64,000 nt of DNA from Escherichia coli (GTDB lineage: Bacteria > Pseudomonadota > Gammaproteobacteria > Enterobacterales > Enterobacteriaceae): assembly GCF_050920415.1 (NCBI RefSeq), contig NZ_CP169310.1; one strand, written 5' to 3'. Of this stretch, positions 28,052-31,000 are shown one piece after another. Within the stretch, counting starts at the first letter, position 1; each line of letters starts with the position of its first letter. The position numbers are program-made.

Positions 28052-31000
28052 TTATCACAGTCAGGCCAGTCAGAACGGGATATCGTCTGAAAACCCGTAA
28101 TCCTCCCCCTCCGGCGGTTGCGGCTGAGGATGACCGCTGAACTGTTGCCCCTCTTCCGGCTGAGTCTGAGCACCTGCGGCACGTCCCAGCATCTGCATGG
28201 TGCCCGTGGTCTTAACAAGAATTTCGGTGACGTAACGGGTGATACCGTTATCCTCCCGGCTACGGGTGCGAAGATGACCTTCGATGTAGACCTGCGCGCC
28301 CTTGCGCAGATATTCGCCAGCCACTTCCGCGAGCTTGCCGAACAGCACCACGCGGTGCCATTCCGTCAGTTCCTTAATTTCTCCCGTCTGTTTGTCGCGC
28401 CAGCTTTCTGACGTGGCCACCTGCAGGTTTGCCACTGCGCCCCCGTTGGGGATGTAACGGACTTCCGGGTCTTTACCCAGACGACCAACGAGTACAACCT
28501 TGTTAATTCCACGAACTGCCATGATGTGCCTCCTTCTGTTGATGTTTTCAGCCCCCATCACCCGTTGAGTTTCGGGAGCCGCGGTTTTGACGTTTTGCGG
28601 GGACCGGTCTTTTGTTCCCTCCGGTATTAACCATCACCCGTTTGAGAACCTTCGCCGCAAGGGGCATCACTGCCACGGCCGGAAACGACTGTCCGGGGGC
28701 AGACCGCAAAAGTTTTTGCCTGCTTTTGGGCAAAAACTTTTGTGGGATGTGCATTTCACCCCTGGACTGGCGGAGACGGTTGTGGCTGTCTTTGCCCCCG
28801 GCGACAGGGGCTTACACGGGTGTATGGCACCGGATACAACAACGGGCAGGCACCCGCCGCAACGACGAAGAGCGCGTGCGCGAAACGGCGTTGCCCCTCA
28901 CATCCCGGCGGCCTTTTGCCGGGATGCCAGGAGCGCAGGCCACGGCGCGACAGAGGCGGCGCGACCGTTCCGGTCGCTGCAAGCCGGGGGTTTTCACGCA
29001 TCGGACCGTAGCGACAGCCCGAAACCGCGCCAGCGGGTTCGGCGGAGACTGGCAGGTGCGCCAGCAGCTGCCTGTCGGAGCCGGGCCTGACGACCGGATG
29101 CCGCCAGGCAGCCGGGAGCCGAAGGGGCGCCCGGCAGACAGGACAACACTGCAGTAGTCAGAATCAGAGCAGCAGGAAAAAGAAGAACAGTAGCAGTAGC
29201 AGTAGCAGTAGCAGTAGCAGTAGCAGTAGCAGTAGCAGTAGCAGTAGCAGGAACAACAACATCAGTAACAGACAAATGACAGGCATGAAGAAACAGAAGC
29301 CCCCATCAGAACGTCCGCGTAATGAAAGGGGCGGCGCGTCAGCGCGGCCCCTTTCAGCGCCGCCGGCGCGCGGTTTTTTCCCGGCGCGGGCAGACAGGCA
29401 TTTATCCTCCCGCCTGCCCGGCGTCATCAGGCACGCAGACGAATAATCATCGTCGGAACACGTGTATAAGCAAACGTACCGCGTGGCAGCACCTCGCGGA
29501 CGTCAGAAAACGGTAACAGCTTCTCCTGCTGGCGCGGCCCGTTCAGACAGACGGCAACCAGCACGCCCCCCGGACGCAACAGGGAAAAAGCCCGCAGGAT
29601 ATGCCGGATATCCTGCCCGTGACTGAACGGCGGATTCATAATAATCCGGCTGTAATACTGCGCCGGCTGCCATTCCATGAAGTCACCATGCTGCACCCTG
29701 ACACCGTTAAAATTTTCCCGCAGATACCGGACCAGTCCGCTGTTAATCTCCACCGAATCACACATGGCCCCCGGCGCGGTATCCCGAATCGCCCGCAGTA
29801 TGGCTCCGGTGCCGGCAGAGGGTTCCAGAATGTGATCACGGTTGCTGATCTCCGCCAGTGTCACCAGGCGCTTACAGACCGGGGCAGGTGTCACAAAAAG
29901 CTGAGATTCAGCCCGGATTTCAGCAACCGGCGCGGCGTTATCCAGCCTTGCGCGCATCAGCCGGATACGTTCTCTTAACTGACTGTGCATGTCATTATCT
30001 CCGTCATACCCCGGGGCTTTTCCCCGGGGATAAGCCTTATTTCTGCGGGATTTCCGTGATTTTCATGTCGGTGATATACACATTCACCAGGCGGAAATTA
30101 TTGTCCATTGTGCGGCGGTAACGATATGCCCCGTGGTCTTCTGCCTCTGCCACACTGCGCACGGCCTTACAGTCCCGGGGCAGGGCAGCCCACTGTGCCT
30201 TTGTCATTTCCCGGAAACCTTCTCCCGGATAGTTGACAACAGGCGGGCGCTTCGCGGCCTGTCTGGCGACGGCGGCCTCTTCTGCCGATGGTGCTTTGTA
30301 GTCCGTGATGCGATCGGGCGTCACTTTCATCGTGCCGCTGTACCCGAGAAAACTGTAATTTGGCGTTGTGACTGAACTCACCGCCCCGTTGCTTTTGTTC
30401 ACACGGATGATGGTCAGCCACTCGCCCCGGCTGAAAACCTGCCCGCCCGGCTCAAAATCCTGTGTCCGGGTAACCACGCCGCCGCTTTCGTCCAGCATGG
30501 CACGCTCATAGATCAGGCGGTTCTGATAGTGGTTAACCCAGCGTTGCTGACGCTGAATCTGCCGTTCATGACAGCGGATCGCAATTTCGCGGGCCTGCTC
30601 CGTGGTGATGATGTCATCATCCAGGGCCGACCATAACGATCGACTTCCTTCATACTGGCTTTTTTCTGCCGGGCGCGGATACGTATCCAGCGGGAAACAG
30701 GCGCTGATATGGTCATGACTGCTGATGAGTTTTGCCATATTCAGATCCAGCGATTCAGCCCGCCACATCGTCAGATATTTCTGCGACTGCGCGATGGTCT
30801 TTTCAGACTTGCGCAAATCAGCTTCGATTTTTTTGATACGACGCCAGCGAACGTCCGGACGTTCTTTATACTTCGCGTGAAGCAGTGCCGACCGCGCCCG
30901 CTCTTCCCAGTATTCCGCACGTTCAAAGAGCATCACGGCACGTTTCATGCCGTTTTCAATACGCTGCGCATCACGACGGGCGCGGCGTTCACTGTGATGC

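What the first reader, a model, noticed from the sequence alone, without database searches (positions are those of the whole stretch)
29188..29250. Perfect (CAGTAG)x10 microsatellite between the ssb promoter element and the orphan methyltransferase gene
Ten uninterrupted hexanucleotide units lie just past the 3' end of the methyltransferase gene (29427-29990) and just upstream of repeat copy 2 and ssb. The equivalent positions next to copies 1 and 3 lack it. Tracts like this change length by slipped-strand mispairing and could alter the spacing or strength of the ssb single-strand promoter.
Basis: seen in the sequence. Interest (0 to 1): 0.4.

Follow-up and report, generated by a model that had tools for sequence, protein, structure and literature searches.

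The report
Known plasmid typing repeat VNTR-37
The ten-unit CAGTAG repeat is real and changes length very quickly, but it is the same locus as VNTR-37 (O157-37), long used to fingerprint E. coli O157, and nothing here suggests it controls the neighbouring ssb promoter.

Summary
Window 29188-29250 holds a perfect (CAGTAG)x10.5 array. It lies 177 nt past the stop of the methyltransferase gene and about 190 nt beyond the Frpo-like single-strand promoter element upstream of ssb.

The array is hypervariable. The window, 17 related plasmids and pO157 Sakai carry 1 to 13 perfect units. Plasmids whose 1.2 kb of flanking DNA is identical differ in unit number (11/13/7, 6/5, 8/7).

It is not new. pO157 Sakai has the same gene module with 7 units, and the published PulseNet VNTR-37 (O157-37) primers match exactly on either side of its array. 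The literature reports 3-17 repeats and about 8.5e-5 mutations per generation for that locus.

It is non-coding. All three minus-strand frames are open by composition, and relatives show 1-nt indels and lost start codons.

It lies outside the Frpo hairpin (28631-28830). Predicted single-strand folding of that hairpin is the same for 0 to 20 units. Plasmid F and an IncI plasmid have Frpo-ssb units without it, and one- and two-unit alleles occur on plasmids typed as conjugative.

Best reading: a near-neutral slippage-prone repeat in a purine-rich spacer. A regulatory role is not excluded but has no support.

The parts
29188..29250 (.). Perfect hexanucleotide array: (CAGTAG)x10.5 on the + strand, which is the transferred T-strand, and (CTACTG)n on the gene-sense strand. 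Orthologous to MLVA locus VNTR-37 / O157-37.
   Evidence: TRF and raw sequence. Alignment with pO157 Sakai. The published primers bracket the pO157 array.
29140..29310 (+). Purine-rich, T-poor, low-complexity spacer in which the array is embedded (A 0.43, G 0.26, C 0.20, T 0.11 on the + strand). A 3-nt CAT insertion polymorphism lies just right of the array.
   Evidence: Composition. CAT indel. Predicted mostly unpaired as single-stranded DNA.
29309..29335 (-). Site of the published VNTR-37 forward primer (2 mismatches in this plasmid). The reverse-primer site is absent because the left flank is a different Frpo variant.
   Evidence: Primer sequences come from the appendix table of PMC3321953.
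29324..29379 (.). Two G+C-rich inverted repeats between the methyltransferase stop and the array. The second (29357-29369, followed by a T run) reads as a terminator only on the + strand, which is antisense to the genes.
   Evidence: Sequence, terminator scan and fold. The hairpin is conserved in relatives and, in diverged form, beside copy 3.
29427..29990 (-). 187-aa class I SAM-dependent methyltransferase gene, the upstream neighbour. It has only weak, sub-threshold similarity to Erm/KsgA-type adenine-N6 methyltransferases.
   Evidence: ORF, annotation in relatives, NCBIfam.
28564..29185 (+). Frpo/ssi-type single-strand promoter unit upstream of ssb (Frpo2-like). The core shared by all three copies runs to about 28992. 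The main predicted hairpin is at about 28631-28830. Positions 28993-29185 are shared only with copy 1.
   Evidence: Repeat families, alignment, single-strand DNA fold with z = -6.3. Frpo2 upstream of ssb in F is described in PMC9849209.
28070..28561 (-). Plasmid ssb gene, the first gene downstream of the Frpo unit.
   Evidence: ORF and annotation in relatives.
29164..29427 (-). Open frame reading the array as poly-Leu. Its ATG overlaps the methyltransferase stop as TGATG. Judged not a gene.
   Evidence: The frame is broken or its start lost in close relatives (L001 1-nt deletion, L003 group 1-nt deletion, ATG to AAG in L002/L004/L006/L007/L010). No NCBIfam family.
28994..29275 (-). Open frame reading the array as (Ala-Thr)n, annotated as a hypothetical protein in many records. 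Judged not a gene.
   Evidence: It overlaps two other open frames and runs into the Frpo element. No family.
20425..21062 (+). Frpo copy 1, nearly identical to copy 2 up to GAATCAGAG. It is followed by a purine-rich tract without the array.
31920..32511 (+). Frpo copy 3 with its purine-rich tract (32432-32511, (AAG)n and a single CAGTAACAGG). This is the unexpanded counterpart of the array.

Best explanation
The tract is a non-coding, hypermutable hexanucleotide repeat. It is the same locus as the MLVA typing marker VNTR-37 / O157-37. It sits in the purine-rich spacer between the end of the DUF3560-methyltransferase operon and the Frpo2-type single-strand promoter of ssb, in the leading region of an IncF-type plasmid.

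It gains and loses whole CAGTAG units by slipped-strand mispairing during replication. The mechanism is inferred; the whole-unit changes and the rate are shown. The spacer tolerates any length from 1 to at least 13 units (17 in the literature), so the variation is most likely neutral or nearly so. The array is an expansion of a motif present once in the equivalent spacer of other Frpo units. It does not take part in the promoter hairpin.
For: - Perfect array at the stated place.
- Unit number is 10, 8, 10, 11, 9, 9, 2, 8, 13, 7, 1, 7, 6, 5, 4, 8, 7, 2 in the window and 17 plasmids, always whole perfect units, and 7 in pO157 Sakai.
- Plasmids with 1200 nt of 100% identical flanks differ in number: L003/L008/L009 = 11/13/7, L012/L013 = 6/5, L015/L016 = 8/7.
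- pO157 Sakai has the same DUF3560-methyltransferase-array-Frpo-ssb module with 7 units.
- The published VNTR-37 primers match pO157 exactly on both sides of the array.
- PMC3321953 Table 1 lists VNTR-37: 6 bp, on pO157, 3-17 repeats, 11 alleles, diversity 0.82.
- PMC3777172 gives 8.5e-5 mutations per generation, changes in whole units, and 7 units for EDL933.
- Non-coding: all three minus-strand frames are open, 1-nt indels and lost ATGs occur in the spacer, the + strand Ser frame has no start codon before the array, and there is no protein family.
- Outside the promoter: the shared Frpo core ends near 28992 and the hairpin is at 28631-28830. Folding with 0-20 units leaves the hairpin unchanged, with maximum pair-probability changes of 0.14 or less and about -0.35 kcal/mol per unit.
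- Dispensable: F and an IncI-gamma/K1 plasmid have Frpo-ssb units without it. One- and two-unit alleles occur on plasmids typed as conjugative.
Against: - No expression or transfer data exist for different unit numbers, so neutrality is inferred and not measured.
- All three Frpo copies in the window are followed by one of the four most purine-rich 80-nt stretches of the + strand. This hints that the spacer itself may have some role.
- The array has been kept through recombination that swapped the Frpo type to its left.
- The folding calculation is thermodynamic only and ignores SSB and RNA polymerase.
Confidence: 0.8

Rival explanations
1. The array tunes the ssb single-strand promoter. By changing the length of the spacer next to Frpo2 on the incoming T-strand, unit number would alter folding, SSB or RNA polymerase loading, or read-through from the upstream operon. 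That would set early ssb-psiB expression, making the array a contingency locus for plasmid establishment.
For: - It lies on the T-strand immediately 3' of the Frpo2 unit and enters the recipient just after it (orientation).
- It is hypermutable.
- Every Frpo copy in the window is flanked by a purine-rich tract.
- No minus-strand intrinsic terminator was found between the methyltransferase gene and the array, so read-through across it is plausible.
Against: - It is about 190 nt beyond the conserved Frpo core and about 360 nt from the hairpin arm, so it cannot change -35/-10 spacing.
- The predicted hairpin is unchanged from 0 to 20 units.
- Lengths of 1 to 13 units occur on plasmids typed as conjugative.
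- F and an IncI plasmid lack the array.
- Deleting the whole of Frpo2 in F did not change conjugation efficiency (PMC9849209), so there is little selective leverage.
- The unit is a multiple of three and does not lie in a promoter spacer, unlike classical contingency repeats.
Confidence: 0.1
2. The array is coding. It would be part of a small protein whose length varies: poly-Leu (29164-29427, minus), (Ala-Thr)n (28994-29275, minus), or poly-Ser on the opposite strand (L7083 / pO157p48 in pO157).
For: - A hexamer unit preserves the frame.
- Annotation pipelines call one to three hypothetical proteins here.
- The MLVA literature lists VNTR-37 as inside ORF L7083.
- In the window the poly-Leu frame starts with an ATG overlapping the methyltransferase stop.
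Against: - All three minus-strand frames are open for 80-117 codons, which points to composition and not selection.
- Close relatives carry 1-nt indels in the spacer, and both candidate ATGs are lost in several.
- The poly-Ser frame has no ATG/GTG/TTG before the array in the window.
- None of the three products matches an NCBIfam family.
- A peptide whose hydrophobic run varies from 2 to 26 leucines is unlikely to be under functional constraint (inference).
Confidence: 0.04
3. The array acts at the RNA or DNA level in another way, for example as a Rho-loading or insulating pyrimidine-rich stretch in read-through RNA, or as a hot spot for recombination between Frpo units.
For: - The gene-sense RNA across the spacer would be U/C-rich and little structured.
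- The left edge of the array coincides with the junction between different Frpo variants in the window, pO157 and Klebsiella plasmids.
Against: - There is no direct evidence.
- C is only slightly above G (0.26 against 0.20 in the RNA sense).
- The same junction could simply reflect recombination within the Frpo homology.
- One-unit alleles exist.
Confidence: 0.05
4. The length differences are assembly or sequencing artefacts.
For: Repeats can be miscounted in noisy long-read assemblies.
Against: - All differences are exact multiples of 6 with perfect units, in complete records from many laboratories.
- The array (up to 78 bp in the sequences read here) is shorter than a typical short read.
- Fragment-length typing in independent laboratories finds the same polymorphism (PMC3321953 and PMC3777172).
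Confidence: 0.01

Closest known systems
VNTR-37 / O157-37, a locus of the PulseNet MLVA scheme for E. coli O157 (Keys et al. 2005; Hyytia-Trees et al. 2006; as used in PMC3321953, PMC3777172 and PMC10062581)
   Same: It is the same orthologous locus. The 6-bp unit (TGCTAC = CAGTAG in another register and strand) is the same. The position between the methyltransferase-like gene and ssb on an IncF-type plasmid is the same. The right flank is near-identical. The published primers bracket the array in pO157 Sakai.
   Different: The window's plasmid carries a different Frpo variant to the left of the array, so the reverse primer has no site and the forward primer has 2 mismatches. Standard VNTR-37 PCR would probably give a null allele here. 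The literature treats the locus only as a typing marker on pO157.
Other hexanucleotide VNTRs of E. coli O157 (VNTR-3, -9, -17, -19, -25)
   Same: They have 6-bp units, change in whole units, mutate at around 1e-5 to 1e-3 per generation, and are mostly of unknown function (PMC3777172, PMC3321953).
   Different: Those loci are chromosomal. This one is on conjugative and mobilisable plasmids, so it also moves between strains and species.
Contingency (phase-variation) repeats of Haemophilus, Neisseria and Campylobacter (general knowledge)
   Same: Both are hypermutable simple repeats that change by slippage.
   Different: Classical contingency repeats lie inside a reading frame with a unit not divisible by three, or between the -35 and -10 elements, so that length switches expression. 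Here the unit is six bases, the tract is non-coding, and it lies far outside the promoter elements.
Frpo / ssi single-strand promoters of F and ColIb-P9 (Masai and Arai 1997; PMC9849209; PMC11541004; PMC12672017)
   Same: The array is the immediate neighbour of an Frpo2-type unit upstream of ssb, on the transferred strand.
   Different: It lies outside the sequence shared by Frpo copies, takes no part in the hairpin, and is absent from F and from an IncI plasmid.

Membership tests
MLVA locus VNTR-37 / O157-37 | Amplified by the published primer pair | tested here: met
   Both primers match pO157 Sakai exactly at 46379-46405 (+) and 46526-46562 (-), bracketing its array at 46468-46511. The window's array aligns to that array with a near-identical right flank. 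In the window itself the forward primer has 2 mismatches and the reverse primer has no site.
MLVA locus VNTR-37 / O157-37 | 6-bp unit, plasmid-borne, variable copy number | tested here: met
   Period 6. 2373 of 2394 matching places in complete E. coli genomes are on plasmids. 1-13 units in the sequences read here, against 3-17 in PMC3321953.
Contingency (phase-variable) repeat | Repeat lies in a reading frame with a unit not divisible by 3, or between the -35 and -10 of a promoter, so that slippage switches expression | tested here: not met
   The unit is 6 bases. The region is non-coding by indel and start-codon tests. No sigma-70-like promoter was found in 28000-30100. The Frpo hairpin is about 360 nt away.
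Contingency (phase-variable) repeat | Hypermutable relative to flanking sequence | tested here: met
   Identical 1200-nt flanks with different unit numbers in four sets of plasmids. Published rate of 8.5e-5 per generation.
Contingency (phase-variable) repeat | Unit number changes expression of a gene | not testable with these tools
   This needs reporter or transcript measurements in transconjugants.
Frpo / ssi single-strand promoter element | Lies within the sequence conserved among Frpo copies | tested here: not met
   Homology shared by all three copies ends near 28992. Copy 1 diverges exactly at the array, and copy 3 and F have a single unexpanded motif.
Frpo / ssi single-strand promoter element | Takes part in the stem-loop that rebuilds the promoter | tested here: not met
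   The array is about 68% unpaired. The hairpin at 28631-28830 is unchanged for 0-20 units. This is a thermodynamic prediction only.
Protein-coding repeat (L7083 / annotated hypothetical proteins) | Start codon and reading frame conserved among relatives | tested here: not met
   1-nt indels and lost ATGs in the spacer. No start codon before the array in the + strand Ser frame of the window. Three overlapping open frames on one strand.

The most novel reading that the evidence does not exclude
The purine-rich, unstructured spacer that follows each Frpo unit on the transferred strand could be a working part of the single-strand promoter unit. It might keep the upstream hairpins from interfering with Frpo folding, or set SSB or RNA polymerase loading. 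The CAGTAG array would then be a fast-mutating length dial on it. Sibling plasmids would differ in how strongly they express ssb and psiB in the first minutes after transfer, giving a contingency locus for plasmid establishment that has been used for twenty years only as a typing marker.
Probability: 0.08. Interest if true: 0.55.

Novelty: already known. Interest (0 to 1): 0.15.

Why it matters
As a sequence feature it is ordinary and already catalogued. The useful points are practical.

1. The typing marker VNTR-37 is not specific to pO157. The locus matches in 2065 of 5426 complete E. coli genomes, 931 of them over at least 80% of the query, and is also found on Klebsiella and Salmonella plasmids.
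2. Because it rides on conjugative plasmids, it can move horizontally and blur clonal inference.
3. Plasmids like this one carry a different left flank, so the standard reverse primer would fail.
4. The hypothetical proteins annotated across it are probably spurious.

If unit number were shown to affect early ssb-psiB expression, the locus would become a simple natural handle on single-strand promoter function. Nothing found here points that way.

Tried and rejected
- **Rfam scan of the whole window.** It found only traJ 5' UTR/FinP and sok, and nothing at the array.
- **Promoter scan of 28000-30100.** No sigma-70-like site. The only terminator-like site near the array is on the + strand, antisense to the genes, so no + sense transcript start was found.
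- **Literature search by sequence in both orientations.** Only unrelated eukaryotic and primer hits. A search for VNTR with IncF and leading region gave nothing. The three Frpo papers do not mention a tandem repeat or microsatellite. The link to MLVA came from memory of O157 typing loci and was then tested with pO157 and the published primers.
- **Coding hypotheses.** Rejected, see the rival explanations.
- **A purine tract as a universal part of Frpo units.** An IncI-gamma/K1 plasmid has only a short A-rich stretch and no repeat, so the tract is not required in general.
- **Exact -35/-10 hexamers of the hairpin.** I tried to place them by eye and could not do so convincingly. They are left unassigned.
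- **Ideas considered but not supported by anything testable here:**
  - Hfq (A-R-N)n binding on a + sense RNA (no promoter found for such an RNA).
  - DnaG CTG priming sites (CTG is on the non-transferred strand).
  - EcoP15I CAGCAG sites in the flank.
  - SAY-type single-strand methylation (this motif is recalled from memory and was not checked against the paper; it does not occur in CAGTAG on either strand).
- **Unbiased allele distribution.** It could not be obtained from the search tables, because short alleles break the alignments and the rows are ranked by score.
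Full report
**1. The observation**

Tandem Repeats Finder reports one array at window 29188-29250: period 6, 10.5 copies of CAGTAG, 100% matches, no indels, score 126. The raw sequence agrees. It is the only long short-period array in the 64 kb. A run of 54 further bases repeating a given hexamer has a chance probability of 4^-54 per position, so this is not chance.

**2. Context and orientation**

- FinP and the traJ 5' UTR lie at 15966-16075, with traJ on the minus strand.
- The origin of transfer is therefore near 16.2-16.8 kb, and the region above it is the plasmid leading region.
- All leading genes are on the minus strand. In order of transcription they are: an antirestriction gene, DUF1380, DUF3560 (30037-31398), a 187-aa class I SAM methyltransferase (29427-29990), then ssb (28070-28561), DUF905, a ParB-like gene (25751-27715) and psiB.
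- The + strand is thus both the template for these genes and the strand that enters the recipient 5' end first, the T-strand. This step is inferred from the standard F model.

The window holds three Frpo/ssi-type repeat units, at 20425-, 28564- and 31920-. Frpo elements are single-strand promoters that drive early expression of ssb and neighbouring genes in F (PMC9849209; PMC11541004; PMC12672017).

The array lies 177 nt past the methyltransferase stop, and about 190 nt beyond the end of the sequence shared by all three Frpo copies (about 28992). That includes the absence of the array beside copies 1 and 3:
- Copy 1 is almost identical to copy 2 up to GAATCAGAG and diverges exactly where the array begins.
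- Copy 3 has (AAG)n and a single CAGTAACAGG at the equivalent place.

**3. Length variation**

Megablast of the region against 72,556 plasmid records hit the 5000-record limit. Full-length matches had spans from 267 to 338 bp against 321 in the query. I fetched 17 of these records and read the tract directly.

- Unit numbers for the window and the 17 plasmids are 10, 8, 10, 11, 9, 9, 2, 8, 13, 7, 1, 7, 6, 5, 4, 8, 7 and 2. pO157 Sakai, fetched later, has 7.
- The units are always perfect and always whole.
- Plasmids whose 600 + 600 nt of flanking sequence are 100% identical still differ:

| Plasmid loci | Unit numbers |
|---|---|
| L003 / L008 / L009 | 11 / 13 / 7 |
| L012 / L013 | 6 / 5 |
| L015 / L016 (Klebsiella) | 8 / 7 |
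| window / L001 (flanks differ by one 1-nt gap) | 10 / 8 |

The tract therefore mutates much faster than its surroundings.

In complete E. coli genomes the locus matches in 2065 of 5426 genomes, 931 of them over at least 80% of the query. Of 2394 matching places, 2373 are on plasmids.

**4. It is a known locus**

pO157 of E. coli O157:H7 Sakai carries the same module: pO157p46 (DUF3560-sized), pO157p47 (methyltransferase-sized), an intergenic region, then ssb. Its array is at 46468-46511, period 6, 7.3 copies of TGCTAC.

The primers published for the PulseNet MLVA locus VNTR-37 are in the appendix table of PMC3321953:
- forward GCCGCCCCTTACATTACGCGGACATTC
- reverse GCAGGAGAACAACAAAACAGACAGTAATCAGAGCAGC

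They match pO157 exactly at 46379-46405 and 46526-46562, one on each side of the array. An alignment shows the window's array is orthologous to it, with a near-identical right flank.

What the literature reports for this locus:
- PMC3321953 Table 1 lists VNTR-37 as a 6-bp repeat on pO157, "inside ORF L7083", with 3-17 repeats, 11 alleles and a diversity index of 0.82 among 202 strains.
- PMC3777172 measured 8.5e-5 mutations per generation for O157-37 in serial passage, with changes in whole units, and gives 7 units for EDL933.

In the window's plasmid the forward primer site has 2 mismatches. The reverse site is missing, because the left flank belongs to a different Frpo variant.

**5. Coding or not**

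Annotation pipelines call up to three overlapping hypothetical proteins here. The evidence is against all of them.

- On the minus strand all three frames are open across the tract for 80-117 codons in every plasmid (poly-Leu, Ala-Thr, Tyr-Cys). That pattern is what base composition produces, not selection.
- The spacer between the tract and the methyltransferase stop carries 1-nt indels in close relatives: C5 to C4 in L001, and loss of a G in the L003 group.
- The ATG that overlaps the methyltransferase stop in the window is AAG in five relatives. A second ATG is lost in six others.
- On the + strand, the Ser frame that corresponds to L7083/pO157p48 has no ATG, GTG or TTG before the tract in the window.
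- None of the products matches an NCBIfam family.

I conclude that the tract is non-coding.

**6. Relation to the ssb promoter**

- Folded as single-stranded DNA, window 28540-29400 forms a long hairpin at about 28631-28830 (z = -6.3 against shuffles). The array is essentially unpaired.
- I refolded the same stretch with 0, 1, 2, 5, 8, 10, 13, 16 and 20 units. The hairpin is the same in every case.
- Only peripheral pairs flip between two nearly isoenergetic alternatives, with no trend in unit number.
- Each unit adds about -0.35 kcal/mol.
- Pair probabilities in the Frpo part change by at most 0.14.
- The array cannot change -35/-10 spacing, because it is hundreds of bases from the hairpin.
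- Plasmid F has an Frpo2-ssb unit with a (GAAGAG)-type purine tract and a single CAGTAACAGG instead of the array.
- An IncI-gamma/K1 plasmid has neither a tract of that length nor a repeat.
- One- and two-unit alleles occur on plasmids typed as conjugative.
- Deleting the whole of Frpo2 in F did not change conjugation efficiency (PMC9849209).

None of this proves that unit number has no effect. There is, however, no positive evidence for one.

**7. Most likely mechanism**

The array is an expansion of a motif already present in the purine-rich spacer that follows Frpo units. It changes by replication slippage in whole units (inferred mechanism, observed outcome). The spacer tolerates a wide range of lengths, so the polymorphism is neutral or nearly so. 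I give this 0.8.

The rivals and their weights:

| Reading | Confidence |
|---|---|
| Tuning of the single-strand promoter or of read-through | 0.1 |
| Another RNA- or DNA-level role | 0.05 |
| Coding | 0.04 |
| Assembly or sequencing artefact | 0.01 |

**8. What remains a little odd**

Three of the four most purine-rich 80-nt stretches of the + strand in the whole window are the tracts that follow the three Frpo copies. The left edge of the array also coincides with the junction between different Frpo variants in the window, pO157 and Klebsiella plasmids. These points keep open a small chance that the spacer has a role, but the IncI comparison argues against a general requirement.

**9. Verdict**

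| Item | Verdict |
|---|---|
| Observation | Confirmed |
| Slippage half of the interpretation | Supported |
| Promoter-tuning half of the interpretation | Unsupported |
| Novelty | Already known as VNTR-37 / O157-37 |
| Interest | Low |

Noticed in passing
window 20983-21062, 29174-29253, 32432-32511: Each of the three Frpo copies is followed on the + strand (the T-strand) by a purine-rich, T-poor tract. These are three of the four most purine-rich 80-nt stretches in the whole window. F has a (GAAGAG)-like tract at the same place, while an IncI-gamma/K1 plasmid has only a short A-rich stretch.
   Followed up: partly
window 20425-21060 versus 28564-29185: Frpo copies 1 and 2 are 100% identical over the gap-free stretches scored (20425-20853 against 28564-28992). 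In the wider alignment, which starts 25 nt further left, they differ at two positions and then diverge abruptly at the left edge of the array. This suggests recent gene conversion or recombination between the copies.
   Followed up: partly
window 29060-29190; L015/L016 and L019 (pO157) at the equivalent place: The array is joined to two different Frpo variants in different plasmids. The window has the copy-1 type. pO157 and the Klebsiella plasmids have the F/copy-3 type. Homology resumes about 24 nt left of the array. The standard VNTR-37 reverse primer therefore has no site in plasmids like this one.
   Followed up: yes
window 29427-29990 (minus strand): The so-called orphan methyltransferase has only weak, sub-threshold similarity to Erm/KsgA-type adenine-N6 RNA methyltransferases. 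F carries a separate gene annotated as a 227-aa DNA methylase further upstream and lacks the DUF3560-methyltransferase module altogether. The substrate of the window's enzyme is unknown.
   Followed up: partly
window 29357-29379 (+ strand): A G+C-rich stem followed by TTTTTT reads as an intrinsic terminator only on the strand antisense to the leading genes. No canonical terminator for the methyltransferase operon itself was found before the array.
   Followed up: no
window 28994-29427; many plasmid records (L002-L014); pO157p48/L7083 at L019 46373-46828: Public annotations carry two or three mutually overlapping hypothetical proteins across the array (poly-Leu, Ala-Thr, poly-Ser). They look like over-predictions caused by G+C-rich, stop-poor sequence.
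   Followed up: yes
window 23758-23958: A perfect 100-bp tandem duplication (2.0 copies, 100% identical) lies about 300 nt from the sok antitoxin RNA match at 24250-24426.
   Followed up: no
window 36650-36810: A cluster of A/C-rich 11-bp repeats (CCAAAAAAACC-like) occurs in two blocks about 95 nt apart. Its function was not examined.
   Followed up: no
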